Of a DNA stretch of 64,000 nucleotides, positions 882 to 55,902 are shown piece after piece. Source of the DNA: an uncultured virus (IMG/VR IMGVR_UViG_3300000304_000038) (Duplodnaviria > Heunggongvirae > Uroviricota > Caudoviricetes); IMG/VR virus record IMGVR_UViG_3300000304_000038. One strand, written 5' to 3'. A program made the translations under genes and the position numbers. Positions within the stretch are counted from its first letter, which is position 1. Each line of letters begins with the position of its first letter. The notes below the pieces were generated by a model. That model had not been told where the DNA came from. It was given only the letters and a program-made list of their open reading frames with translations, and made no database searches.

Positions 882-1006
882 TTAATCTTTCCTTTCTCTT
901 GGTTGCTAAAGCAATTATAGCAAATCCAAAAGCAAGTTGTAAAGAGACAAAAAAGACCGCATAGCCAAGGATTTTCATATCTACTGGGCTATGCGGCTAT
1001 AGAAAA

Positions 1007-2488: not shown

Positions 2489-3139
2489 TTACTCACAATT
2501 GCCCGCACCGAGGGGGATACAGATACCCTCATACTTATCAATGGTGATATTATGACTCTCAAGAAGATTCATGGTATCAACCATCTCTTCAATATCCTTC
2601 AGAGTGAACTCATACGCATGACCATCTGCCTCGATGCTAATGGTCCCACATAGGGCATCAACCGCAAGGCTCAGAGGGATATGGCTCTTTGCCGTTCTAT
2701 AGCGACGATTCAGACCGTCCCAAGAAGGCTTACCAAACTCACAATCAATCTGCACGACCCCATCACGGCAATCTTGTGTGATGTGTATATCATCAAGCCA
2801 AGAAGAATCCGAATTTCCTCCCTTGAACTTGGTAAGAAAATCCTCCCAAAAGACAGAATCCTTGAATTCAGAGATACTATGATACGTCTGAGTATCAACG
2901 ATTACGCCTTGAGTTGAATAGCCTCTCTTCTCCTTGTTGATTCTTACACATTCAGATTCATAGGTTACGACATAAATGGTATTATAGTTATAATCAACTT
3001 CCACATCAGTATAACGCTCTGTGCGGCAACCAACCTCCATTTCATCGAAAGAGCAGAGAGACGTGTAATAAAGGTGACAACAAGGACTCGTCTCGACCAT
3101 ATACCAAACGTCACGAATAGTCTGCGGCTCAGTCACCAT
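2489..3139 (-). CDS. hypothetical protein
   Basis: 216 aa ORF in operon with neighbours. Confidence 0.55.
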   Translation of the reverse strand: MVTEPQTIRDVWYMVETSPCCHLYYTSLCSFDEMEVGCRTERYTDVEVDYNYNTIYVVTYESECVRINKEKRGYSTQGVIVDTQTYHSISEFKDSVFWEDFLTKFKGGNSDSSWLDDIHITQDCRDGVVQIDCEFGKPSWDGLNRRYRTAKSHIPLSLAVDALCGTISIEADGHAYEFTLKDIEEMVDTMNLLESHNITIDKYEGICIPLGAGNCE

Positions 3140-3500
3140 CGTTGTAAATCATCTCCCTCACAGTAAAATCATCGAACTCTTCCTCAATCTTCTCGCAACA
3201 ATCATTGGTGAGATAGGCGATCGCCTCGTCCCCGCCCCAGTAGCCGTGGACTGTCTTCTCATAAGTATCAACCCAGATATTCGGACCGCCGCAAGCCACC
3301 ATGATGCGGACACCCATCAGGCCATAACCCATGCGCCAGATGAAGTCGGTATTATAGGTATCGTCAAAGTAATAGGTACCCTCTTCATCGTCCTCATGCT
3401 CGAGCTCATAGAAGCCAGTATCCTTGATTTCCTCAAGAGTATCAGCGATTCGCCGCACCATCTTGTTGAAGTTGTCCTGAAACTCTTCCTGATAGGTCAT
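3129..3500 (-). CDS. hypothetical acidic protein
   Basis: ATG at 3500 after AAAGGA SD and TTTACA-18-TATACT promoter. Confidence 0.65.
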   Translation of the reverse strand: MTYQEEFQDNFNKMVRRIADTLEEIKDTGFYELEHEDDEEGTYYFDDTYNTDFIWRMGYGLMGVRIMVACGGPNIWVDTYEKTVHGYWGGDEAIAYLTNDCCEKIEEEFDDFTVREMIYNDGD

Positions 3501-3846
3501 TAGTTTTCCTTTCTCTCTCTTGGACAAGTATAGTATACACCATCCAAGAGCAAGTTGTAAAGAAAAAAGAGAAGACATAAGTCTCCCCTGATTTTTTTAT
3601 ATGTGGGCGCTCGCAAGGATGGAGGTCAAGTCCATCCCGCTCGTCTTTGTTCCCCTTATTACGGTCTACTTATCTCTACAAAGTGGAGACCCCAACCTCT
3701 TTTTTGCGTAGTGAGAGATACGCAGAGGCAAGTGTTTGCGGGAACCGTAGCTATCCTAGGACGGTCCGGCAATCCTTGTATCCATAGCAGACTAGTGGCT
3801 CTCACACCGAAACTGTCTGCATTGAAATCTCAATCAAATAGGCTCT

Positions 3847-4126
3847 TAGCCCCCCTCGGATTCGAACCGAGACTGAACGCATTTTCTTACCACACCATAT
3901 CGCTATGGCCGCACAAGGCGTTGTAGTCTGGACTATGCCTTTACCATATCCTATTGGACTTAGGTAGGTGGTATCTAGTCTCTACACATTTAGGATTACT
4001 CCATTTAGCACGGCGTTGTCTCAGAGAGAGTTTCGCCGTTTTAGCCACCATTCACTTAGTAGTTTCCAAATCTAAGTGCTCAAGTTTTACCCGAGTGCGC
4101 TTCCTCTGCCGTTGGGATACGGGGCC
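3847..4126 (-). tRNA. tRNA-Leu(CAA), intron-containing (exons 4093-4126 and 3847-3885)
   Basis: Spliced: GGCCCCG UA UCCC AACGGCAG AGGA A GCGCA CUCAAAA UGCGU UCAGU CUCGG UUCGAAU CCGAG GGGGGCU A; short variable loop. Confidence 0.85.
3886..4092 (-). mobile_element. group I intron in the tRNA-Leu anticodon (207 nt, no ORF)
   Basis: Core motifs GUAGAGACUAG and AAGGCAUAGUCC (P7), ACGGCG/CGCCGU pairing, terminal G. Confidence 0.85.
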
Positions 4127-4285
4127 TAAGAACCTATTCAACTAAAGATGCGGTTTGTAGGCTGCTACCGGAACCGCGCCAGTCTCGAAAGGTGCCTACT
4201 TCCTCTTATTTCTATCCTCCATTTAGTTATGGCTTGAAATAAGAACCAGGTCAACCTTAAAAAGGTAGGAGGATGGTCACGTAAA

Positions 4286-4591
4286 TTAAGCAATCTTCTC
4301 TTCAAACCCAGAATCAACAAACGGATTCGGCTGAACGTGAAACACCTCGTCAGAGAAGTGGAACTCCCCGTCCTTGTCAATGATATAACAGTGAGCACCA
4401 TTGTGCTTGCCGTCATAAGCACCAACGCCCATCACCGCAAAAGGATTCTTACAGTCGGTATCGCACTCGTCGCAAACCAAATCTCCCGGAAAGCAAGGAA
4501 TACCGTTACGGTCAGGCGGAACGATGATGTGCGGCTGACCAGCCGCATCCTCAAGCGTGCAGTAGTTGAAGGTGTAACCAGAGACGTTCAT
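4286..4591 (-). CDS. hypothetical protein
   Basis: ATG 4591 with SD and TTGACT-18-TATAAT promoter. Confidence 0.6.
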   Translation of the reverse strand: MNVSGYTFNYCTLEDAAGQPHIIVPPDRNGIPCFPGDLVCDECDTDCKNPFAVMGVGAYDGKHNGAHCYIIDKDGEFHFSDEVFHVQPNPFVDSGFEEKIA

Positions 4592-4840
4592 CAAGTTCCT
4601 TTCTCTCTCTTGGACAAATATATTATAGCATAATCCAAAAGCAGAAGTCAAATGTAAAACTGAGGAGGTTGCGTGTCTCTCCTCGCATCCTTGTTTTCGG
4701 CACAAGGTATAAGCCTCTCCTCCCACGGGATAAACAAAGCCCTAGTTTATGGCACAGGTCATAAGCCGCAAGGCAGGAAAACGTCCCGTCCTTGCACTAA
4801 ATATTATACGATTTTGCGGCATCTCTTGGCAAGAAAAAAA

Positions 4841-5386
4841 TTACCAATCCCACCACATGATTACTCGAACGTCCGCAGAATCATAATAACCATAAAGACC
4901 GACGAAGTGCCAGATGGCATTGATGAAATCCTTGAAACTACGCCGCACACCAGCTACCTTGAACTCGTGGCCGTCGCAATCAACATCCTTCTCCCACTTG
5001 GGATACTTCTTCTTGTTGCTGACAGCGACCTCCAGCTCTGCCAAGGTGTACCAAGTCTCGCCGAAGCACCAGAATCCATCCTCAGCATCGTCTCGCTTAA
5101 ACTTGTCATGCTCATTCTTGACCTCGCCGCTTATATCGATGGGGAGTCCTCGTGCATAGTCAAAGACGCTATTATAGTTTCCGCCCTCTAGAACGGAGAA
5201 CAACTCATAGTCACGACCTATCCAAGGTTGCGCATAGCGCCATGCGGGGATGGCCTTGTCTAGGATGTGCGGCTTCTTGGTATCGCTAGGAATGTAGCGA
5301 TTGTATCGCACCTTGACAGGTACGATGTTCCACTTCTGACTCTTTCGGTCACGCACCTCTACAAATACGGTAATGTCCTTACCCAT
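4841..5386 (-). CDS. hypothetical phage protein
   Basis: 181 aa ORF with AAAGGAGG SD. Confidence 0.7.
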   Translation of the reverse strand: MGKDITVFVEVRDRKSQKWNIVPVKVRYNRYIPSDTKKPHILDKAIPAWRYAQPWIGRDYELFSVLEGGNYNSVFDYARGLPIDISGEVKNEHDKFKRDDAEDGFWCFGETWYTLAELEVAVSNKKKYPKWEKDVDCDGHEFKVAGVRRSFKDFINAIWHFVGLYGYYDSADVRVIMWWDW

Positions 5387-9422: not shown

Positions 9423-10238
9423 TTAGGCTTTGCGGTCAAACTGAATGTTCTTTTCCAACATCGCCTCGGACAGGTCAAGAGCCTGAACGCACTTGGTACA
9501 AGCCGCACCCTCGCTCAGACAACGAAGCCGACAGTTCAGCTTGGTCTTTCCAAGAGTGGGTAGAATGGTACGGCAATAGTAGTTGAAAGGTACCCACTCG
9601 TTTATCTCCTGCATGTCCCCGCCCCAATCCTTCTTCTCGAACCAGATGCGATATAGGACCGCAAGCTTCTTGAAGTCATAGGACTTGTCGTGGCCGCAAT
9701 TGAATTCCGCAACATCGAAATACTTTGATATCTCATCCATGTCTCTTGGCATATATATCTGAATAGTCTCGTTGAAAGAGGGATGCGTCATGGGAACCGT
9801 GTTCAGGACGGTTCTAATTTTGATGCCATTGGCCGCACAATATCGCCGCACGTTCTCCATGTTATAGGTAAGGTCATCGCTGATATAGACCTCGGACACA
9901 TGCAGCTCCTCGACATAGGACTGAAGGTCACGAAACGAGCAACACGGGTTGTCCTCTGAGAAGAAGTATCTATGTTCCTTCTCATGGAGCTTGCCGGTAA
10001 GTGCCAAGTCAGAACTCTTCAGCCTGAAGCAAACGTTGTCAAACAGGGCGCCAAGGGCATCAGCCGTCTTGATGTCAAGACCATTGCGGTATTCGATGTT
10101 TATCTGCTTGTCCTTGAATTCCTTCACGAATGCGATAAGGTCATTGAAGTTCTGATTTGTCGGGTCAAAATAGATTTGAAACTCACTCGCAACGTCGTTC
10201 AACTCGAAATGATTCTTGAATGGAATCGCTAGTCGCAT
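9423..10238 (-). CDS. hypothetical protein, possibly U32-like, with a Cys-rich C-terminus
   Basis: ATG 10238 after GAGGT; CxxxC...CxxC tail; family assignment tentative. Confidence 0.45.
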   Translation of the reverse strand: MRLAIPFKNHFELNDVASEFQIYFDPTNQNFNDLIAFVKEFKDKQINIEYRNGLDIKTADALGALFDNVCFRLKSSDLALTGKLHEKEHRYFFSEDNPCCSFRDLQSYVEELHVSEVYISDDLTYNMENVRRYCAANGIKIRTVLNTVPMTHPSFNETIQIYMPRDMDEISKYFDVAEFNCGHDKSYDFKKLAVLYRIWFEKKDWGGDMQEINEWVPFNYYCRTILPTLGKTKLNCRLRCLSEGAACTKCVQALDLSEAMLEKNIQFDRKA

Positions 10239-10748
10239 ACCTCGATATCGCCCACCTTTCCTCGCATCCATGTGTCAAGCTGTGAGAACTCTACCCCATA
10301 CTCCGCAAGAAGGTTGTCCACCCTCTCTCTCGGAACGGGATTCCGTAGGCTCTCCTTGTAGAGGAGGTCGATTCTGTCCTCCAGCTCTTCGGCAAACATT
10401 CCTAGAACCGTATAGCTATACGGGTCAGTGATATCTAAAATAGACATGATTTCCTTTCTGCTTATTGCTACTCAAACTCGCAATTCTCGCAGTAGGTGTA
10501 ATAGTCATTCTCTGCCTCGAAGAACTTGTCCAGTCCGTCCCAAGCATCCGCAAGAAGCGAGTAGATGGCGGGTTCAACATCCTCGTCCAAATCGTCATTA
10601 GGCGTATATCCAGCCTTATACATTTCGACAAGCCCACCAAGAGCATCTGTCTTGTTGATAAACTCTACAATTGTCATTTTTACCATTTTCCTTTCTATTG
10701 GATTCTAGCTTTAGCTTATTATACCCTTTTGCCCATATTTTAGTCAAG

Positions 10749-10795: not shown

Positions 10796-12262
10796 CTAGA
10801 TATAGGAGTAGTCGTTGATAAGATCAATGAGCGAGATACCCTGCTCCTTCATGCGAATCATATCAAAGACCTTCTCGTTGAGAGCGGTCATAAGAGTGAT
10901 ACGGCCGGAGTTGGGGCTTGCCACCTGAGTATGATAGTTGCCAAGGTCGTAGGAATAGATGTGCGTACCATTGTGAGCCGCAAGATACTTGTTCACTACG
11001 GTAACGGTAGTGACATCATAACGATGGCCCCACCAATCGGACGGACGAGCAGCCATAACCTGCATGTCAGAGATAAGAAAGATGCGGCCAAAGTCTCGAC
11101 CGCTCTTAGAGAGAACGTCGAAGGCAGGAACGATTTCCGTACCGTACCCGAGATCGTCGTTGTCCTGCATCTTGCGAATGAGGTCGAACATGTTGGACTT
11201 GAAGCTCACATCGAATGCCCTAGCATAGTTTCCGAACTTCACGAAGTAGGAATCAGGGTTGGCATAGAGGATAGCTGCCGCATACACAGCTCCCGCCTCC
11301 TTGATGGAGATACGAGAGTTCTCGGAGATTGGAGACTCCATAGAACCAGAAACGTCCAGAACGATTGCGGTCGAACCCTCGAACTGAGGCATGTTGGACA
11401 CGGAAAGACGGAACGCCTTGTCCAGAGCCGACATGATGCACACGGGAGCAAAGTCGCAGAACTTGTACGCGGTGTAAATCTGGTAGGGGAACACGAGAGA
11501 CTTCTCGATGGCCTCCTTGTTCACAATCTGCGGACAGACGTACTCCTCAATCCACTCCACGGAGGGAGCAGCCGCAATAATGTTGTTCAGGTTGCGAATG
11601 AGGGCAAGGTACCCGAGCTTGTGAGACTCAACCATATCGCGCCAGTTCTCGTCACGAGCCTCCTTGGAGCCAGCGTTGGAGATACGGTTCTCCCACGTAT
11701 CAGCAGCCGCAAGGGTACCATGCTTGTAGGCATCAATGGCCGCAGAGTGAGCGTGGGTGATGTTGATAAGGTCAAAGAGATTGTACTCCTTGCCATTCAT
11801 CTTATACTTGGAAATCTGATACTCCCCAAGAGAGGAAAGATAGTCACCGGCCCCACGGACGAGAGCGTGAGAACGCTTGGAACCAAGAGACTGAACAGCA
11901 GCGAACACCTCTGCCACACCATCGGGACGGCGGAAGTAGTGCTTGTAGAAGTCACGCTTGGTCTCGAACTGATAGTTGTTCAGCATGGCCGCAGTGAACT
12001 CGGATATGGAGCGTAATCCAAGCTCGTTGCGAGCATAGCAAGCAGCCTTGGCCGCAAAGACAGGACCATGCTTCTCAATCATCCTCTTGGTGAGGTCGAA
12101 GTAGCGGTTCATCTGGTCCTCGGCAGACTCATAGAAGCCGTCCTGCATCAGCGAGGAGAAGATGAAGTTGACCCACTCCTCCTCAAGAGACTTCTCGTAG
12201 AGTTCAGCTCCCTCATAGGATTCGGCCATTGCGGGCGTGGACTTCACGTTGAACTTGGACAT
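10796..12262 (-). CDS. rsr: Ro60/Rsr (TROVE + vWA) RNA-binding protein
   Basis: FYE...YARNELGLRS, DTWE, LGYLALIRNLNNI TROVE motifs; vWA MIDAS LDVSGSM, GT, ISDMQ. Confidence 0.92.
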   Translation of the reverse strand: MSKFNVKSTPAMAESYEGAELYEKSLEEEWVNFIFSSLMQDGFYESAEDQMNRYFDLTKRMIEKHGPVFAAKAACYARNELGLRSISEFTAAMLNNYQFETKRDFYKHYFRRPDGVAEVFAAVQSLGSKRSHALVRGAGDYLSSLGEYQISKYKMNGKEYNLFDLINITHAHSAAIDAYKHGTLAAADTWENRISNAGSKEARDENWRDMVESHKLGYLALIRNLNNIIAAAPSVEWIEEYVCPQIVNKEAIEKSLVFPYQIYTAYKFCDFAPVCIMSALDKAFRLSVSNMPQFEGSTAIVLDVSGSMESPISENSRISIKEAGAVYAAAILYANPDSYFVKFGNYARAFDVSFKSNMFDLIRKMQDNDDLGYGTEIVPAFDVLSKSGRDFGRIFLISDMQVMAARPSDWWGHRYDVTTVTVVNKYLAAHNGTHIYSYDLGNYHTQVASPNSGRITLMTALNEKVFDMIRMKEQGISLIDLINDYSYI

Positions 12263-12531: not shown

Positions 12532-12667
12532 AAACGAGGAAATATTTAGAAGAGTGCTATAACCTGCTCTACCAACTGAGCTACCTCGCCTCACGGCAAG
12601 GGTTGGACTCGAACCAACGACACGGGGTTTTCCATACCGAAGTAACTCTTCTGACCGTCACTCGTTT
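12532..12667 (-). ncRNA. yrlA: YrlA-type Y RNA unit 2 (permuted tRNA-like domain)
   Basis: Terminal stem motif, then T arm GUUGG-UUCGAGU-CCAAC, closed acceptor-like hairpin CUUGCC-GUGA-GGCGAG, D arm UAGCUCAGUUGGUAGAGC. Confidence 0.85.
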
Positions 12668-15504: not shown

Positions 15505-16458
15505 TTACAATCCCAGATAGTCTCGCACCTTTTGGTTGATAAGGTTGCGGACGTTACCAAAGTTTACAGTTACCTTCATCTTCTTCTTCAGAACGAAGTC
15601 AACGAGATTGTCTTCGATTACAGAAGTCACGACCTCGTTCATGGTGCGGCCAATGAGAGCCTTGTCGTTGGTCCACTCGTCAACGCCCATCGCCACCATG
15701 ACCTTCGCCTGAGCCTTGGAAATCTCAGATACGGTACAGAACTGCTCAACGAACTCTCGCTCGGTCTCACCGTTTGCCTGAGCGATGTTAGCCTTGGACT
15801 TGCGGCTCTTATTGTCGAGATAGTCCTGACGAACCATCTTGCCAATAAAAGGATGACCATATTTATCTCGATAGTCATAGTTATAAATAACTATTCCCTC
15901 ACCAAACTGATTCGCCGGAAGATTATAATTATTTTTATCCATCAAAGAAACTATATCAGATAAAGATGGGTGAGACAAAACAGCTATTGGTGTTAGCGTT
16001 TTATCGTAAAAGGACTTCAGCATATGCTCATAATCTGGATAGGGTATATAGATTCCTTTTTCTGCGTCAAAAATTGCAAAAATAAAGAAACCTCCATCTA
16101 GATAATTTTTGATGGAACCTACGAACTTAGGTGTTTCAGAAACATGTCCAATAAACTCACCGTATACGATAAGTCCTTCATTGTCTAAACAAAATTGTCT
16201 AAGAGCTGCAATCTGTGTATCCTGAGAATCCATAATATATCTACAGAAATTAGCGTTATCATTCTCCATATCTATCTCTCGTTTACGAGAACCGCAGTGA
16301 ATTTGACCTTGACTAGCCCACACCAAACTTGATGTTCCATCAATTTTTGGAAAGATATAAATCGTATCAGAATCAAGAAAATCAAAAATGTTTACTTTCC
16401 TATCACATAACTTCTCAACATGCGTAAAAGATCTATACTCTACATTTTTGACTGTCAC
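15505..16458 (-). CDS. ATP-dependent RNA ligase (Rnl2-like)
   Basis: Nucleotidyltransferase motifs PKIDGT (I), GSRKR (Ia), YGEF (III), FFIFAI (IIIa), EGIV (IV), IGKMV (V). Confidence 0.8.
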   Translation of the reverse strand: MTVKNVEYRSFTHVEKLCDRKVNIFDFLDSDTIYIFPKIDGTSSLVWASQGQIHCGSRKREIDMENDNANFCRYIMDSQDTQIAALRQFCLDNEGLIVYGEFIGHVSETPKFVGSIKNYLDGGFFIFAIFDAEKGIYIPYPDYEHMLKSFYDKTLTPIAVLSHPSLSDIVSLMDKNNYNLPANQFGEGIVIYNYDYRDKYGHPFIGKMVRQDYLDNKSRKSKANIAQANGETEREFVEQFCTVSEISKAQAKVMVAMGVDEWTNDKALIGRTMNEVVTSVIEDNLVDFVLKKKMKVTVNFGNVRNLINQKVRDYLGL

Positions 16459-18110: not shown

Positions 18111-18148
18111 CAAAAAAAAGCCCCTGCCTTGCGGCGGGGGCTTTTTTT
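18111..18148. terminator. bidirectional intrinsic terminator
   Basis: A-tract GCCCCTGCC-TTGC-GGCGGGGGC T-tract between convergent genes. Confidence 0.75.
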
Positions 18149-18986
18149 ATTTGAATTTCTGAAACCACATCTTTTCTATGATATCCCGCAGCTCTTTCAC
18201 TTCGTAGGGAAAGTGGTACAGGCAGCAGCAATCATAGTGATGGTCCGCCCTGCTTGGGTTGTGATATGGGAAGAAGTCATAGTGAAAGTGTCCGTGGAAC
18301 CAAGAGTCATAGTCAAGAGTCTCCGCAAGAGCCTGAAGATACTTCTCACCGACTGTTGGAACCATGCGTGGTTCGCCTCCTCCATGCGGCGAGGCGATCT
18401 CCGTGAAATAGGCAGGACAGTCATGGGAGAGAACGAGGTCGAAATGGTCTTCGTTATCAGCGAGAAGCTTGTAGAGAGCCGTGGTGTTGATTGCCTCCTG
18501 CGGCCACCACGTCTTGCCGATGATGCGGTAGAACTGCTCTCGGAAGGCTCGACTCGTGTAACTCGGCTTTCTCTCGGGAAAGCAGATACTATCAATGTCG
18601 TGAGAGTCCGCTCCCGGAATGAGAAGACAGTGATAGCCCGCAATGTCCGCGATGCATGGCTCGTCAACGATATACTGGTTGTGATAAGACTTGCCGTTTA
18701 CCGAAAGTCTCTTCATCTTTGGGCAATTATAGATTGTCGATGCCATAGAAGAATAGTCAAGGCTCTCCGCAAAATCATAATTATCATGGTTGCCAAACAT
18801 GTATATCACATTGAAGGGCTTCATGGCAAGGCTCTTGGCTACGAACTCAGTTGTCTTGTCGGCACCGGGCCAGCCGATTCCCGTGTCGCCTAGAATGATT
18901 ACCGTGTCGTTCTCGTCAAGCTCCCGAAACTCTGGGAACTTCTTGTATGAGAACGCACTCGCATTGTCTCCGTGGGTATCGCTCAA
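18147..18986 (-). CDS. calcineurin-like metallophosphoesterase (5' end frameshifted, see findings)
   Basis: DTHG, GD, GNHD, SH, GHFH motifs. Confidence 0.85.
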   Translation of the reverse strand: MSDTHGDNASAFSYKKFPEFRELDENDTVIILGDTGIGWPGADKTTEFVAKSLAMKPFNVIYMFGNHDNYDFAESLDYSSMASTIYNCPKMKRLSVNGKSYHNQYIVDEPCIADIAGYHCLLIPGADSHDIDSICFPERKPSYTSRAFREQFYRIIGKTWWPQEAINTTALYKLLADNEDHFDLVLSHDCPAYFTEIASPHGGGEPRMVPTVGEKYLQALAETLDYDSWFHGHFHYDFFPYHNPSRADHHYDCCCLYHFPYEVKELRDIIEKMWFQKFK

Positions 18987-41300: not shown

Positions 41301-42139
41301 ATAACTGAACAGCAAGCTAAAGAAATTATTGATTTGCTATTATCCAAAGAATATACTCAATCAGAAATTAGTAGGATGTATGGTTTATCGGATGATTATG
41401 CAGGGAACATCAAGAGGAAAAAATTGTGGAAATATCTTACAGAAGATATTGATTTTAGTTAGTAGGTTCAACGACTATGGCATATGCCAGTACATTCAAG
41501 TGAATGGAAACAGAAGAATAAGGAAGATATAGTCTAATCTATATAGTAATATATAGCAGTATTTTTATACGCATATCTTAGTAGCGACAAGATATGGAAT
41601 GTAATGTAGGTATTGGGCTTATAGACGAACTAGTGCTTGACCAAGAAGACCCAGATACGGGAGAGCTTCTACCCAATCTTGGTGTCTACAATGATGATGA
41701 AGGCAAATACAAGAAGTTCGAGAACGAGAATACCATCAAGGCCGCGATGTATATTATGAAGGCTAATATCAACATCAACACGGAACTCTATGCTTACACT
41801 CAGGCTCAGATGCGGTCTGGCAAGCTCAGATTTCTCATTGACGAAGATAGAGCCAAGGTAAAGCTTCAAGGTCAAACGCAGTACAAGCGTATGAACTCTG
41901 ATAAGAGAGCTGAGTATCTGCGGCCATATGTTATGACTTCGATTCTCAGAGACCAGCTAATGAATTTGGTCCAAGAGAACGAAGGTGTCAACATTATCTT
42001 GAAGCAGCTCAGCAAGACAATCAAGAAGGACAAGTTCTCCGCTCTCATTTATGCGCTCTATTGGCCGATGCAAGAGGAGCGGAACAAGAAGAAGAAGCGT
42101 TTCGACGCCTCTAAGATGATGCTGTTCACTCGCTCATAG
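38394..42139 (+). CDS. terL: terminase large subunit, 4 exons (38394-38741, 38996-39511, 40454-40814, 41607-42139; 585 aa spliced)
   Basis: Walker A PRGFSKS, Walker B-like GLMEEA, coupling ITSAG, RNase H-like GVDVG, DGNGLG, KDKFSA; exon lengths sum to 1758 nt. Confidence 0.9.
38742..38995 (+). mobile_element. group I intron terL-I1 (254 nt, no ORF)
   Basis: P1 GGUGGU/GCUACC with U-G; P7 GCAUAG/UUAUGC; terminal G; splicing gives SGG-KEQ. Confidence 0.85.
39512..40453 (+). mobile_element. group I intron terL-I2 (942 nt) with GIY-YIG ORF
   Basis: P1 ACGGU/GCCGU; AUCGACUAU and AAAUAUAGUC; splicing gives MDG-TFNEASF. Confidence 0.88.
39624..40367 (+). CDS. intron-encoded GIY-YIG homing endonuclease
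   Basis: GIYCFRNKENDKCYIGQS...R...H...GYN..GG; frame begins at ATA after AAGGAG SD. Confidence 0.85.
   Translation: MSKGIYCFRNKENDKCYIGQSTNIESRYKAHLRNYKNRNSKEYHSKFYRALRKYTPDNFIFMILIQDDSFSKKDLNTLEKYFISINNSFCNGYNSTEGGDSYGYGVSRILSSQDVLDIKNRIINSTDSFIQIAKDYNVSDSLIAMINNGRIWNNSSEYIYPLRVNAHFRNIGGTNPNSKLSDEQVMDIRKQFVDNTLPELYKKLEGIISFSELKKILYGSQFKHLPIYRKYKKQWELNGTCIDYPSL
40815..41606 (+). mobile_element. group I intron terL-I3 (792 nt) with HNH ORF
   Basis: P1 AUGGGU/GCUCAU; AAUUGCUGGG, AAUCAGCAG, UUCAACGACUA, AAGAUAUAGUCU; splicing gives DGNG-LGIGLID. Confidence 0.88.
40932..41462 (+). CDS. intron-encoded HNH homing endonuclease
   Basis: VHRLV...VNHKDGNKRNNNLDNLEWCT..EN. Confidence 0.9.
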   Translation: MRKLIYNHRYEFKYPYYVEENGKIWSERTHKYMAISLDKNGYEKVCLMAKDGHRHRFSVHRLVLENFCPREDMANLQVNHKDGNKRNNNLDNLEWCTCQENIDHAVRMNLRADQRGENNPCHKITEQQAKEIIDLLLSKEYTQSEISRMYGLSDDYAGNIKRKKLWKYLTEDIDFS

Positions 42140-51977: not shown

Positions 51978-54900
51978 ATGCGATTTGGTATTCGTGACAT
52001 TACTGATGTAGTCTTCAAGGCTCGCTCTGAAGTCCGCATTGGTAATCAGACCTTCAAGCCCGGTCAGCCAGTTCTTTATATCGACACCGCTAAGACTGCT
52101 ACCCTTGAAGGTGCTGCTACGCAAGTGTTCGCACAAGGCGGACGTGGTAATCCCCGCTTGGTAGGCTGGGAGGGTTGGGCTAGACAGCTAGTAGCTGCCT
52201 AATAAAGCGTTTGCTCTCCGATTCTGGTAACAGATGTAGTAAAAATTTTCTAATTGCTGGGACGCCTTTATTTATAGATAGAGGTAATCAGCAGCCAATT
52301 TACTGGTTCAACGACTATCGCTTACGCGAGTAGATTCTACCAAAGAATCGAAATGGAAATCTCCTATCTTGTGATAGGATGAAGATATAGTCTAATCCGT
52401 ATGTATATATAAAGATACGGCATGTGCTGGAACGCACCATTACCTTTGAACTTCCTCAAAGCGCGAAGGTAGCTGCTTAGTAATAAGCGGCATATAAAAT
52501 TTCTTGAATTGCGGGAAACTCCTAAAAAGTTTCGATTACTAAGCCAATATAGTGATATAATTGGTGGCAAGGGTAATGACCGAGGTAAAGTAACAACGTC
52601 GAAATCTTGGACAATCCGCAGGTAAGCTAGTTATTCAACATCGGAAGAAGGATACTGAAAATGAATCCAGATGCAGAAAAGCCAAAACTGACTCCTAGTC
52701 AGATAAAGCCGGGAATGAAATTCAATCATTGGACGGTATTGAAGTTTAGTCATAAAAACAAACATAGAATTCCATATTTTCTTTGTAGATGCGATTGCGG
52801 TACTGTTAGAGCTGTAAGAGGGACAGCGCTAATACAAGGAACTTCTCGCGCATGTTCTAGGTCTTGTGAAAACAATATTATAGGACAGCGTTTTGGAAGA
52901 TGGACTGTTCTAAGAGCAGATAAGAGCAGACCTCGATACTATTGGTGTCGCTGCGATTGCGGAACCGAACGGAGTGTATACCGTGGTTCTCTTATCTCTG
53001 GTCAATCTAAATCATGTGGATGTTTGACACATAATGGAACAGTCTGTGGGGTTAGAGAAGAGACAATTGAAAGATATAAATCTTGTATTGGTAAGAAATA
53101 TGGAAAATTGACAGTGTTAGAATTGAATGATGCTGGTGGATATTTTCTTTGTCAGTGCGATTGTGGAAAACAGATACAAGTTCCTAAATATAATATAGTT
53201 AGTGGAAATACTACTTCTTGCGGCTGTACTCGTGCTGAGAGCTTGAGAAAGCAGCAGCAAGAAAAATATGAAGATTGTATAGGAAAAAAGATAAATCATC
53301 TTACTATAACTAATTGCTATTATAAGAATAATAGTTTTTGGTTTACCTGTATCTGTGATTGCGGCAAAGAGTATACTAATTTAGCAACAAGAATATATAC
53401 CGGCTATATTCAATCTTGTGGTTGTTTGAAATCAAAAGCCGAAGAAGATTTTGAGAAGATTCTTCAATCTTATAACATTTCTTATATTAGAGAATATAAG
53501 ATTTCTGATTGTTGCGACAAGCAGCCTCTACCTTTTGATTTTGCCATATTGAATTCAGCCGCAGAGCTAATTGGGTTGGTTGAATTGGATGGAAAGCAAC
53601 ATTATTCAATCGGTGGATGGCAAACAGAGGAAAGACTAAAATACGTCCAGAAACATGATAAGATAAAAATTCAATACTGTCTACAAAACAATATCCCTCT
53701 CTTGGTAATTCCCTATCAATATTATGATAGTTTAGAGGAATTTTTGACTACTTCAGATTTTTGGCAAGTTATAACTAGAAACTTCAACGACTAAACACTC
53801 TATTCGGAAACGGGCAACCGATTTGAGTTAGTGAGAAACCCCTACTATGATAATAGAGGGTGATGATATAGTCTGTTCATTGTATCTCAAAAAAAATGAG
53901 ACGCTAGAGGATGCCCTTCTATCCCCAGTAAGCTTTGCTCTTCTTACTGGCGCTGGTCTTAGCAATGTTGCCTCTGCTGGTGCAAGCAACAAGGTAAAAG
54001 TCAATACTTGGTTTGACCTTCCTATCAAGACTGGCGGCGTAGTTGAGATTGACCTTGCTACTGCTGGTGACAACCATGACATCTATATCGATGATGAAGA
54101 TTATCCTGTCTATGGTACCATCCTTGATAATGCTGGTGCTCCTGTAATTTATTGCGAGAACACTGGTATCGATGGTGTTGAGCCTAACTGCAATGTCTAC
54201 ACCATTACTGCCGACAACAAGCTCGTTCTTCACTTCACTGATGCTGCCAAATATGTTGGTGCCATCATGCGTGTTGATTGCTATGTTGAGAAGACTGGTG
54301 GCGTAACTCGTATCGTGGTTGACCCTGAGAACTTCTCTGGTAACTACTACGTCGAGGCTCAGGCTCTATTCCGTGAGCAGGATTCCGGTCTTGACATGCC
54401 TGTTGTTATTTCTTTCCCGAACGTAAAGATTCAATCCAACTTCACGTTCAACATGAACAACACAGGCGATCCATCTGAACGTATTTTGCGGATGGCTGCG
54501 TAGTAATACGCTGAAAATAAACAATCTTGAATTGCTGGAAACTCCTTAGAGCTTTGAATACCTATAAGGTGATAATTTCAAAGATTGGACAATCAGCAGC
54601 TAGTATGCTAAAATCAAATTATTATATTCACTAACTTTGTTGGGAAGGATATACAAATGGAAAGAAGAATCCATGATTTTTTACCTTATATAAAAGACCT
54701 TTACACTATTACAGATGAAGGAAAAGTATATAGTGATAATACTGGTATAATGAAAACTAGAAATCGAGCTGGTTCAGAGTATCAGATTATAAACTTTATG
54801 ACTATAGATGGCAAGAAAAAATGTTTTCGTTTACACCGTCTAGTAATGATGGCTTTTAGACCAATCGAGCATCCCGAAGAATGGGAAGTCAACCATATAG

Positions 54901-55902
54901 ACGGCAATAAAAAAAATAATAATTTGTCTAATCTGGAATGGTGTACTTCGCATGACAATCAAGTACATGCTTATAAGATGGGTCTACAAAAAAGTCAAAA
55001 AGGTAAAACTAAGAAAATGAGAAGATTGAACGAGGAAGAAGTAAAAAAGATAATTCAATTACGTGCCGAAGGTTATTCCTATAATAGAATTGCAAGAAAA
55101 GTAAATACTTCTCCTTCTAATGTCGCAAAAATAGTAAAAGGCAAAACTTGGTCTAGCATACAGTTCAACGACTATTCCGAAAGGAAGTAGGAATCGAGCG
55201 ATTCCGAAGTAAGATTCCCCGCACAATTTGAAGCGGGTGATGATATAGTCTCTTCTTTGTGGAAACACAAAGTTGCTTTTGTATAAAGCAATTTTAGTTT
55301 TGCGAGCTAAAAAAAGATAAATGACGTTTACGTTTACTATGGATTGCTTCCCCGCCTATATCAAGGGTGACTACAGCCACAAGATGTTCTTCGCTATGGA
55401 CATTGTTGCGGACGAGACCATTCACCCTGATGTAGAGGAAGCTGAGGAAGAGTGCCCAGAGCTAGAGCTTACCTTCTCTGAGATTACCGCTGGTGCTTCT
55501 GACTGGGCTACCAAGGAATTCCCAGGTGACCCCAAGAAGGTAAACTTCCTTACTCTTGGTAACAATCTAAAGGCTACCATCGACCGCGCTAATGTTGATT
55601 TCTCTGGTAATCTAAAGCGCATCGATAACTGGACCGCTTTCAGTTCCAACCCTGAAGACCTTACCGGTTATTACTTCCCATTCACCATGAAGGCTGAGGA
55701 TGGTGCCAAGCTCATTCGTACCACTCGGGCCGGTATTGAGAAGACTCTCGTCTTTGGTCAGACCGGTGATGGTGAGGGCCAGATCAATATGGTTTGGGCT
55801 GTTGACGAAGATGCTCCTGTTGTCAACGTCACTCTCAAGAGCGCTGACGAATCTAAGATTCAGGTATTCAGCTTCGACTTTAGTAAGTGCAACTTCCGCT
55901 AA
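51978..55902 (+). CDS. major tail protein, 4 exons (51978-52175, 52430-52447, 53901-54476, 55324-55902; 456 aa spliced)
   Basis: Splicing gives continuous GNPRLVGWEG-ERTITF-TLEDALLSP and NNTGDPS-TFTFTMD; high-expression codon bias; product inferred from position before the tape measure gene. Confidence 0.8.
52176..52429 (+). mobile_element. group I intron mtp-I1 (254 nt, no ORF)
   Basis: P1 GGAGGGU/GCUCUCC, P10 GCGUUU/GAACGC, core AAUUGCUGGG, AAUCAGCAG, UUCAACGACUA, AAGAUAUAGUCU. Confidence 0.88.
52448..53900 (+). mobile_element. group I intron mtp-I2 (1453 nt) with endonuclease ORF
   Basis: P1 UUACCUUU/GAAGGUAG, core AAUUGCGGG, AAUCCGCAG, UUCAACGACUA, GAUAUAGUCU, terminal G. Confidence 0.88.
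52661..53794 (+). CDS. intron-encoded endonuclease: four CxCDCG repeats + PD-(D/E)xK/EDxHD-like domain
   Basis: Repeated G.K/RF..W/LTV...C.CDCG units; PFDFAI...VELDGKQHY. Confidence 0.8.
   Translation: MNPDAEKPKLTPSQIKPGMKFNHWTVLKFSHKNKHRIPYFLCRCDCGTVRAVRGTALIQGTSRACSRSCENNIIGQRFGRWTVLRADKSRPRYYWCRCDCGTERSVYRGSLISGQSKSCGCLTHNGTVCGVREETIERYKSCIGKKYGKLTVLELNDAGGYFLCQCDCGKQIQVPKYNIVSGNTTSCGCTRAESLRKQQQEKYEDCIGKKINHLTITNCYYKNNSFWFTCICDCGKEYTNLATRIYTGYIQSCGCLKSKAEEDFEKILQSYNISYIREYKISDCCDKQPLPFDFAILNSAAELIGLVELDGKQHYSIGGWQTEERLKYVQKHDKIKIQYCLQNNIPLLVIPYQYYDSLEEFLTTSDFWQVITRNFND
54477..55323 (+). mobile_element. group I intron mtp-I3 (847 nt) with HNH ORF
   Basis: P1 CCAUCU/GGAUGG, P10 AACGU/ACGUU, AAUUGCUGG, AAUCAGCAG, UUCAACGACUA, GAUAUAGUCU. 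Confidence 0.88.
54657..55190 (+). CDS. intron-encoded HNH homing endonuclease with C-terminal HTH
   Basis: LHRLV...VNHIDGNKKNNNLSNLEWCT..DN. Confidence 0.9.
   Translation: MERRIHDFLPYIKDLYTITDEGKVYSDNTGIMKTRNRAGSEYQIINFMTIDGKKKCFRLHRLVMMAFRPIEHPEEWEVNHIDGNKKNNNLSNLEWCTSHDNQVHAYKMGLQKSQKGKTKKMRRLNEEEVKKIIQLRAEGYSYNRIARKVNTSPSNVAKIVKGKTWSSIQFNDYSERK

What the first reader, a model, noticed from the sequence alone, without database searches (positions are those of the whole stretch)
3603..4280. Nested RNA: group I intron inside a tRNA inside a larger ornate ncRNA
The tRNA-Leu flanks pair with each other (AAUAGGUUCUUAG/CUAAGAGCCUAUU, 13 bp), so the tRNA sits on a stalk. Upstream are two tandem three-way-junction modules, each closed by a pseudoknot: AUCCUCC/GGAGGAU with UCUUAUUUC/GAAAUAAGA, and GUAGGC/GCCUAC with GCGGUU/AACCGC. 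Downstream are GCAGAC/GUCUGC, whose loop GUGAGAG complements the loop CUCUCAC of GCGUA/UACGC, plus GACCGU/ACGGUU, GGUCU/AGACC with CUUUGU/ACAAAG, and GGAUGGA/UCCAUCC. GOLLD RNAs of phages are known to embed tRNAs. This is either a compact relative or a new large RNA class.
Basis: partly seen in the sequence, partly recalled or inferred. Interest (0 to 1): 0.75.

Follow-up and report, generated by a model that had tools for sequence, protein, structure and literature searches.

The report
Phage tRNA-Leu on conserved RNA stalk

Summary
A group I intron (Rfam 50.0 bits, exactly the cut-off) splits the anticodon loop of a tRNA-Leu(CAA) between C34 and A35. Six distinct copies of the unit exist in related phage contigs. 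In all six a ~150-nt leader is 86-95% identical, with a 53-nt block that never varies. In all six a 12-21 bp leader-trailer helix frames a tRNA-Leu(CAA). The tRNA exons themselves are only 53-74% identical in 14 of 15 pairs.

The stalk is backed by covariation: 3 of 12 pairs changed on both sides, and all cells pair. No other tRNA of these phages has such a stalk. In the leader one helix covaries and the rest are invariant, so the pseudoknots are plausible but unproven. The ~230 nt downstream is absent from four related genomes and folds no better than shuffles. No GOLLD or ROOL match was found.

Best reading: a pre-tRNA scaffold. The stalk serves processing (and termination in relatives). The leader is released as a stable by-product RNA, as with T4 RNAC/RNAD or MALAT1/mascRNA. 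It has no match in Rfam 15. Its function is untested.

The parts
4622..4651 (-). sigma-70-like promoter (TTGACT, 18 nt, TATAAT, TG extension) that would drive the 101-aa gene, the leader and the tRNA
   Evidence: 11 of 12 hexamer matches. Consensus match only.
4286..4591 (-). upstream gene, 101 aa, no family. Its stop codon lies directly before the leader.
   Evidence: 96% identical protein in L001. Absent upstream of the leader in L002, L006 and L007.
4147..4285 (-). conserved structured leader ('5' module'). Helices: a 4274-4268/4220-4214; hairpin 4266-4262/4258-4254; b 4245-4236/4212-4203; c 4199-4194/4162-4157; e 4183-4179/4171-4167; d 4177-4172/4155-4150. Invariant 53-nt block roughly 4231-4179.
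   Evidence: 86-95% pairwise identity in 6 distinct copies. The 53-column invariant run is reached by 0 of 10000 permutations. Helix d covaries. No Rfam family.
4126..4146 (-). 5' strand of the stalk (leader side)
3829..3849 (-). 3' strand of the stalk (trailer side). In 5 of 6 copies a run of 4-6 U follows; in the window only UAUUUGAUUG follows.
3846..4128 (-). tRNA-Leu(CAA) gene, 76 nt when spliced. Short variable loop, A73, no encoded CCA. 5' exon 4128-4093, 3' exon 3885-3846. By my own numbering G1 is 4126 and A73 is 3847.
   Evidence: ARAGORN with introns allowed. The intron-less counterpart in L001 scores 45.4 bits on Rfam tRNA.
3886..4092 (-). group I intron, 207 nt, between C34 and A35. 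C at -1 pairs with G in P1; the last base is G.
   Evidence: Rfam RF00028, 50.0 bits. Same site and 88-91% identity in L007 and L021. 'Leu.3Cg' type of the Williams 2020 preprint.
Not part of the conserved unit; nature open.
3558..3589 (-). terminator-like hairpin (9 pairs) with U-run; likely end of the transcript in the window
3532..3561 (-). promoter-like site of the next gene (3500..3129, 123 aa)

Best explanation
On the minus strand the phage carries one RNA unit with three parts.
- A strongly conserved structured leader of about 145 nt.
- A helix made from the last bases of the leader and the first bases of the trailer.
- On top of that helix, a tRNA-Leu(CAA) gene. Its anticodon loop is split between C34 and A35 by a 207-nt group I intron.

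I take the tRNA to be the payload and the rest to be a scaffold for making it. The proposed steps are these.
1. The unit is transcribed with the upstream gene. In relatives it follows a tRNA cluster or a small leader RNA instead.
2. The intron splices itself out.
3. The leader-trailer helix stacks on the acceptor stem, giving about 20-28 bp. This holds both ends together as a processing stalk.
4. The stalk is cut by a double-strand-specific RNase and/or by RNase P and RNase Z. CCA is then added, because none is encoded.
5. In relatives the stalk also acts as terminator, with an A-run, the helix, then a U-run.
6. The leader is set free as a stable ~150-nt RNA. Its 3' end is made by the cut at the tRNA. 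This resembles RNAC/RNAD of the T4 tRNA region, or MALAT1 upstream of mascRNA.
7. The invariant 53-nt core of the leader probably binds a conserved partner.

Shown here: the anatomy, the conservation, the covariation of the stalk and of one leader helix, and the intron and tRNA calls. Inferred: splicing, the enzymes, release and stability of the leader, and the partner.
For: - Six distinct copies all have leader, stalk, tRNA-Leu(CAA) and stalk.
- Stalk: 12 pairs, 100% paired, 3 with changes on both sides. The whole structure is 96.4% paired, against 36-51% when partners are slid.
- The stalk is found only on the leader-linked tRNA: 14-18 bp in 8 of 8 rows, 0-8 bp in the other 56 rows.
- G-U pairs in the stalk argue for selection on the RNA, not on a DNA inverted repeat.
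- The leader is 86-95% identical with a 53-nt invariant run (0 of 10000 permutations reach it). The tRNA exons are 53-74% identical in 14 of 15 pairs and 88% in one. The neighbouring 123-aa gene is 69-73% identical at protein level.
- Upstream context differs three ways: a gene, a small leader RNA, or tRNA-Pro. So the unit is a discrete cassette.
- A73 is present in all six and no CCA is encoded.
- A U-run follows the stalk in 5 of 6.
- L001's intron-less counterpart scores 45.4 bits as tRNA.
- Precedents: T4 RNAC and RNAD from the tRNA region (PMC3014915, passage); a leader-trailer extended acceptor stem needed for RNase P processing of MALAT1/mascRNA (PMC8457004, abstract).
Against: - No transcript ends or processing data. 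The runs that could be laid were contigs only, and none joins across the intron.
- The -1 base is C, not the usual U. The Williams preprint says such a change inactivates the Tetrahymena intron and that splicing of this type needs testing.
- A long leader-trailer duplex might hinder rather than help RNase P and RNase Z. This rests on my own knowledge and was not tested.
- In the window the U-run after the stalk is weak, so the terminator role does not hold here.
- Most leader helices are invariant, so the fold is not established.
- Only six closely related copies exist. More distant relatives lack the leader (0 of 4).
Confidence: 0.5

Rival explanations
1. The leader, stalk and tRNA act as one RNA, and the tRNA is never released. 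The tRNA would be displayed on the stalk with its ends buried. It could serve as a decoy or sponge for a host factor that handles tRNA-Leu (a tRNA-cutting defence nuclease, a modification enzyme or LeuRS), or as a compact analogue of GOLLD with a tRNA in its linker.
For: - The stalk buries both tRNA ends and includes A73.
- No CCA is encoded.
- The stalk is tied to the leader, not to tRNAs in general.
Against: - The tRNA keeps all features of a working tRNA: A73 and a 7-nt anticodon loop after splicing. L001's copy scores 45.4 bits.
- Its stems change by compensation at about the rate of neighbouring genes.
- No GOLLD or ROOL similarity.
Confidence: 0.15
2. The leader is a cis-regulatory sensor (riboswitch, protein- or tRNA-binding attenuator). 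It would set how much tRNA-Leu(CAA) is made by controlling formation of the stalk or terminator, or processing.
For: - The invariant 53-nt core suggests a specific ligand or partner.
- The leader lies directly 5' of an A-run/helix/U-run element.
- In L002 and L006 the unit follows its own promoter and a leader hairpin with terminator.
Against: - No alternative pairing between the leader and the 5' strand of the stalk was seen.
- No match to any Rfam riboswitch or T-box at E<=10.
- In L007 the unit lies inside a tRNA cluster without its own promoter.
Confidence: 0.12
3. The leader is a nuclease-resistant cap. It would consist of two tandem knotted domains that stall a 5'-to-3' exonuclease (RNase J type) coming from the upstream mRNA, in the manner of flavivirus xrRNAs. 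This would protect the pre-tRNA.
For: - In both domains, a closing helix is followed within 1-2 nt by a tail that pairs back into the domain.
- The domains are in tandem.
- The leader lies directly behind an mRNA in three of six contexts.
Against: - The resemblance is recalled topology only.
- No Rfam xrRNA hit.
- The crossing helices are unproven.
Confidence: 0.08
4. One reading: one ornate RNA of about 680 nt (3603-4280) that includes the downstream hairpins. It would be a compact GOLLD or ROOL relative, or a new large class.
For: - The downstream stretch lies in the same predicted transcript, before the terminator at 3589-3568.
- It has more perfect helices of 6 bp or more than shuffles: 10 against 4.35, reached by 9 of 500.
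Against: - The downstream stretch is absent from 4 of 4 related records searched.
- At the same place the relatives have an ORF, HNH genes or nothing.
- Contig joints place it elsewhere in relatives.
- MFE z-score is -0.36.
- No GOLLD or ROOL hit.
Confidence: 0.05
5. The leader has no function of its own. It would look conserved because this segment was recently exchanged among the phages.
For: - The upstream gene plus leader are 91% identical to L001 as one block.
- This genome region is mosaic.
Against: - The leader stays 86-95% identical in three unrelated upstream contexts, while the tRNA inside the same frame is 53-74%.
- Substitutions avoid a 53-nt block (0 of 10000 permutations).
- Changes in helix d and in the stalk are compensatory.
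Confidence: 0.1

Closest known systems
GOLLD and ROOL RNAs of phages and prophages
   Same: Phage-encoded structured RNA next to tRNAs. In GOLLD, tRNAs sometimes lie inside the linker (preprint 10.1101/2024.12.08.627333, passages).
   Different: No covariance-model match. The conserved part is about 150 nt, against about 580 to over 800. It is restricted to a narrow phage clade.
RNAC and RNAD of the phage T4 tRNA region
   Same: Small RNAs transcribed with phage tRNAs, role unknown (PMC3014915, passage).
   Different: No sequence comparison was made here. I know of no leader-trailer stalk there (recalled).
MALAT1 / mascRNA
   Same: A structured upstream RNA whose 3' end is made by RNase P at a tRNA-like element. 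An A-rich leader pairs with the trailer to extend the acceptor stem, and this is needed for processing (PMC8457004, abstract).
   Different: MALAT1 is eukaryotic. There the tRNA-like part is not a decoding tRNA. Here the stalk is 12-21 bp and the tRNA looks real.
[quoted passage not shown]
   Same: Same insertion site between positions 34 and 35. The C at -1 and G at the intron end match the Leu.3Cg type (preprint 10.1101/2020.01.27.920355, whole text).
   Different: The 72 Leu.3Cg cases reported there were all in Proteobacteria genomes. This one is in a phage whose nearest cultured relatives infect Firmicutes.
Processing stalks of rRNA operons (flanks pair and RNase III cuts)
   Same: The mature RNA sits on a long helix made of its own flanks (recalled knowledge).
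   Different: No cleavage was tested. The cargo is a tRNA.
YrlA (tRNA-like Y RNA bound by Ro60)
   Same: A tRNA-shaped module on a stem, in a phage that encodes a Ro60 homologue.
   Different: The window has its own YrlA-like hit elsewhere, at 12532-12664 and 42.1 bits. The unit here gives no YrlA hit. Its tRNA has a full anticodon arm.

Membership tests
GOLLD RNA (Rfam) | match to the family covariance model | tested here: not met
   No hit at E<=1 in the 64-kb window. None at E<=10 in window 3400-4900, L002 2480-2960 or L001 3290-3580.
GOLLD RNA (Rfam) | very large size (many over 800 nt) with a universally conserved 3' domain | tested here: not met
   Only about 150 nt plus the stalk are conserved. 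The downstream stretch is absent from 4 of 4 related records.
GOLLD RNA (Rfam) | phage or prophage location near or around tRNAs | tested here: met
   Phage genes are present. The tRNA is framed by the unit.
ROOL RNA (Rfam) | match to the family covariance model | tested here: not met
Group I intron | catalytic core matching RF00028 at the gathering score | tested here: met
   50.0 bits against a cut-off of 50, E 1e-9, full model 1-253.
Group I intron | U at -1 in a G-U pair in P1, and G as the last intron base | tested here: inconclusive
   The last base is G (3886). The -1 base is C (4093), paired with G. This is the known but untested Leu.3Cg type.
Group I intron | self-splicing | not testable with these tools
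   No contig joins across the intron in the four runs laid. Contigs cannot show absence.
tRNA-Leu | cloverleaf with a 7-nt anticodon loop, CAA anticodon and A73 | tested here: met
   ARAGORN with introns allowed. A73 in all six copies. L001's copy scores 45.4 bits on RF00005.
tRNA-Leu | long variable arm (class II shape) | tested here: not met
   The window (76 nt) and L001 (75 nt) have a 5-nt variable loop. L002, L006 (92 nt), L007 and L021 (84 nt) have a long arm.
Intrinsic terminator | helix directly followed by a U-run | tested here: inconclusive
   A U-run of 4-6 follows in 5 of 6 copies. It is weak in the window. The 'loop' is a whole tRNA, which is not the usual form. The scan tool did not call the stalk itself a terminator; its one call there (3852-3840) is a local 5-pair hairpin.
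H-type pseudoknot (two in tandem) | two crossing helices, each supported | tested here: inconclusive
   Helices a, b and e never vary. Helix c shows G-C to G-U changes only. Helix d has 2 compensatory pairs. RNAalifold gives a nested alternative.
YrlA / Y RNA | match to RF02553 or RF00019 | tested here: not met
   No hit in 3400-4900. The window's YrlA-like hit is at 12532-12664.

The most novel reading that the evidence does not exclude
The unit is a single working RNA. A real tRNA-Leu(CAA), evolving at the pace of neighbouring genes, is held permanently on the stalk of a frozen double-knotted RNA. It would act as bait or shield against a host factor that targets tRNA-Leu, or as a miniature of the tRNA-carrying GOLLD particles. 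The invariant 53-nt core would be the site of assembly or partner binding.
Probability: 0.15. Interest if true: 0.8.

Novelty: new variant of a known kind. Interest (0 to 1): 0.5.

Why it matters
Phage RNAs that travel with tRNAs (GOLLD, ROOL, T4 RNAC/RNAD) are known but unexplained. This unit is small, about 150 nt plus a stalk, and it is physically tied to one tRNA species. It comes in natural variants with and without an intron, and with three tRNA body types. That makes the link between such RNAs and tRNA production or protection testable with simple constructs. It also moves the C(-1) type of tRNA-Leu group I intron into a phage setting.

Tried and rejected
- Default ARAGORN found no tRNA. 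The intron option was needed.
- No whole genome is held for the window.
- Earlier findings of this scan: nothing by place or by sequence.
- Named phages: only 12 Pseudomonas phage records matched. The match was a 74-nt piece of the intron core.
- Pattern scans:
  - One search found nothing because I set the spacer one base too long.
  - One search gave 4 true and 4 unrelated loci.
  - One search gave 3 true loci of 7, two of them duplicates of known copies.
  - One search gave 0 true of 2.
  - Searches (downstream stretch; a leader variant seen in contigs) found nothing.
- Covariance model R1 found the leader in 0 of 4 more distant relatives. The positive control scored 196 bits.
- Downstream stretch:
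  - No copy in 4 related records.
  - No other copy in the window.
  - No similarity to the proteins encoded at that place in relatives.
- Sequencing runs: only contigs could be laid.
  - No contig joins across the intron.
  - One RNA-library contig holding the leader had depth 454.6, against 13.8 for a neighbouring contig. Per-contig depths of mixed strains cannot rank expression.
- A Y-RNA reading of the unit was dropped, because a YrlA-like hit lies next to the Ro60 gene elsewhere.
- A short ORF inside the leader (8 codons) and the 48-codon ORF in the downstream stretch were set aside. Neither has a ribosome-binding site, and neither has a conserved context.
- Literature searches listed no description of this leader.

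Full report
WHERE AND WHAT

The window is phage DNA. It encodes a portal, a sigma-like factor, an RNA ligase and HNH endonucleases. No whole genome is held. The nearest cultured relatives by portal protein are a human-gut phage (37% identity) and 140-kb Enterococcus phages (30%). Runs that hold relatives are labelled chicken or bird gut metagenomes. They hold at most 0.33 of the sampled words. The DNA run X1, when laid, covered all 30 bins.

The finding lies on the minus strand, between a 101-aa gene (4591..4286) and a 123-aa gene (3500..3129). Promoter-like sites lie at 4651-4622 and 3561-3532. A terminator-like hairpin lies at 3589-3568. The whole stretch would therefore be the 3' part of the 101-aa gene's transcript.

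THE NESTED INTRON AND tRNA

- Rfam reports Intron_gpI at 4098..3910(-). The score is 50.0 bits, exactly the gathering score, with E 1e-9.
- ARAGORN finds no tRNA in the window by default. With introns allowed it calls tRNA-Leu(CAA), 76 nt, at 4128..3846, with a 207-nt intron at 4092..3886.
- The splice reads CUC / g...g / AAAA. The base before the 5' splice site is C34, paired with G in P1. The last intron base is G.
- This is the 'Leu.3Cg' type of the Williams 2020 preprint, whose whole text I read. That paper reports 72 cases, all in Proteobacteria. It notes that splicing of this type still needs testing.
- The spliced tRNA has a 5-nt variable loop, A73 and no encoded CCA.

RELATIVES

Flanking proteins and three sequence patterns recovered the unit in viral and metagenome contigs. 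After dropping unrelated hits and two duplicates (L017 = L001, L018 = L007), six distinct copies remain: window, L001, L002, L006, L007 and L021.

All six share the same order: leader, stalk strand, tRNA-Leu(CAA), stalk strand. Five of six then have a run of 4-6 U.

The tRNA bodies are of three kinds:
- 75-76 nt with a short variable loop (window, L001).
- 92 nt with a long arm (L002, L006).
- 84 nt with the intron (L007, L021).

The intron is present in window, L007 and L021, at the same site.

Pairwise identities:
- Leader: 86-95%.
- Intron: 88-91%.
- Spliced tRNA: 53-74% in 14 of 15 pairs, and 88% for L002/L006.
- For scale, the downstream 123-aa protein is 69-73% identical. The portal of L001's phage is 68% identical.

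So the tRNA changes at about the pace of neighbouring genes, and the leader is far more constrained. Within the leader, 37 of 156 columns vary. They leave a run of 53 invariant columns, which 0 of 10000 permutations reach.

The context upstream of the leader is of three kinds: the 101-aa gene (window, L001, L021), a small leader RNA with its own promoter (L002, L006), or tRNA-Pro (L007). The unit is therefore a discrete cassette.

THE STALK

- On alignment A2, the 12 stalk pairs are paired in every sequence. Three pairs changed on both sides and one changed on one side.
- G-U pairs occur, which points to selection on the RNA.
- In a script, the contiguous leader-trailer pairing next to the acceptor stem was 14-18 bp in all 8 leader-linked rows (6 distinct). 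It was 0-8 bp in the other 56 tRNA rows. That is 50 rows if the duplicate locus is dropped.
- Those other rows include the tRNA-Leu(CAA) genes of two more distant relatives, with 2 and 4 bp.
- In the window the helix can run 4146-4126 with 3849-3829. It is shifted by one base against the standard acceptor register.

THE LEADER FOLD

Perfect helices of 7 bp or more number 3, against 0.60 expected (8 of 500 shuffles). The counts on A2 are as follows.
- The 7-bp helix a, the 10-bp helix b and a 5-bp helix e never vary.
- Helix c shows only G-C to G-U changes.
- Helix d (GCGGUU/AACCGC, with a seventh pair) has two pairs changed on both sides. Some of its unpaired cells come from a misplaced gap in L006.
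- The whole structure is 96.4% paired, against 93.5% in shuffles (0 of 500 reach it). It is 36-51% paired when partners are slid. The slid control is biased, because the structure was derived from these sequences.

RNAalifold keeps b and d in a nested fold, without a, c or e. The nested MFE is unremarkable, with z -0.46. Two contig variants of helix a seen in the runs carry C-to-U changes that would still pair with G (table 5c). The complementary strand in those contigs could not be read.

The knots are therefore plausible but unproven.

No Rfam family matches the leader at E<=10. Model R1 finds it in none of four relatives with 47-54% portal identity, while the positive control scores 196 bits.

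THE DOWNSTREAM STRETCH (3828-3600)

- All the listed hairpins exist.
- The stretch folds no better than shuffles, with z -0.36.
- It does hold more perfect helices of 6 bp or more than expected: 10 against 4.35, reached by 9 of 500 shuffles.
- It is absent from four related records, two of them at least 90% complete.
- It was not found by an 18-mer in viral contigs.
- It is not repeated in the window.
- It is unlike the proteins that relatives encode at this place.
- One DNA contig of run X1 covers 3637-3828 with 13 differences. Joints in X1 and X16 put this stretch, or the end of the stalk, directly before the 101-aa gene's promoter. So it moves independently.

I treat it as a separate, unexplained trailer, not as part of the unit.

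COMPARISON WITH GOLLD AND ROOL

Membership fails, however. There is no model match in the window at E<=1 or locally at E<=10. The conserved part is about 150 nt.

HOW IT MOST LIKELY WORKS

The tRNA looks functional, and the stalk exists only with the leader. I therefore read the unit as a pre-tRNA scaffold.
- The stalk stacks on the acceptor stem and gives about 20-28 bp of helix. This is a plausible substrate for a double-strand RNase, and a frame for RNase P and RNase Z. CCA addition would follow. In five of six copies the stalk, with its A-run and U-run, looks like a terminator.
- The leader would be released as a stable RNA. Two precedents apply. T4 makes RNAC and RNAD from its tRNA region, with roles unknown (PMC3014915, passage). 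MALAT1 needs a leader-trailer extension of the mascRNA acceptor stem for RNase P processing (PMC8457004, abstract).

All processing steps are inference. They are weighed in their own sections.

VERDICT

The leader plus stalk is a new small structured RNA tied to tRNA-Leu(CAA) in a narrow clade of gut phages. Four literature searches and Rfam 15 gave no description of it.

Noticed in passing
window 10796-12262(-), 12532-12664(-), 15505-16458(-), 18147-18986(-): An RNA-care cluster. It holds a Ro60 homologue (TROVE domain, 48.5 bits) with a YrlA-like RNA hit just upstream (42.1 bits, below the cut-off of 69, E 5.9e-6). An RNA ligase and a metallophosphoesterase lie nearby.
   Followed up: partly
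window 52191-52414(+), 55073-55272(+), 41376-41556(+): Further group I intron hits at 85.1, 45.8 and 30.1 bits. The first is followed by an HNH/homing endonuclease ORF at 52661-53794.
   Followed up: no
window 4800-4655(-); L001 2790-2935; L002 2520-2650; L021 1951-2100(-); L006 1284-1384(-): A second conserved small RNA element with its own promoter-like site (4832-4803). It is a hairpin CCUUG-loop-CAAGG with a conserved loop, followed by a terminator-like hairpin. 7 of 23 predicted pairs have compensatory changes. In L002 and L006 it lies directly 5' of the leader, in an RNA-only unit.
   Followed up: partly
L052 13683-14059(-) (record G007): A more distant relative has a 377-nt non-coding gap between tRNA-Lys and its tRNA-Leu(CAA). 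The gap is unlike the leader and has no Rfam match.
   Followed up: partly
L007 1298-1586 and L021 (as oriented): The acceptor stems of these two intron-bearing tRNAs are near mirror images: the 5' strand of one resembles the 3' strand of the other. Their T stems and variable arms differ by compensating changes. Their D loop and anticodon arm are the same.
   Followed up: no
record G007: 122844-122919(-) and 9587-10325(-): ARAGORN calls a tRNA with a four-base anticodon (tgaa), and a tRNA-Arg(CCT) with a 639-nt insert.
   Followed up: no
window 3506-3537(-), 4596-4627(-), 914-945(-): A repeated 5'-untranslated motif (TTGTCCAAGAGAGAGAAAGGAA) lies between the promoter-like site and the start codon of several small genes.
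   Followed up: no
downstream of the unit in L001 (3576-4166), L007 (from 1667), L021 (from 2155, as oriented): The site just after the stalk is a hotspot for inserted genes. L001 has a 196-aa ORF there. L007 and L021 have HNH endonuclease genes there.
   Followed up: partly
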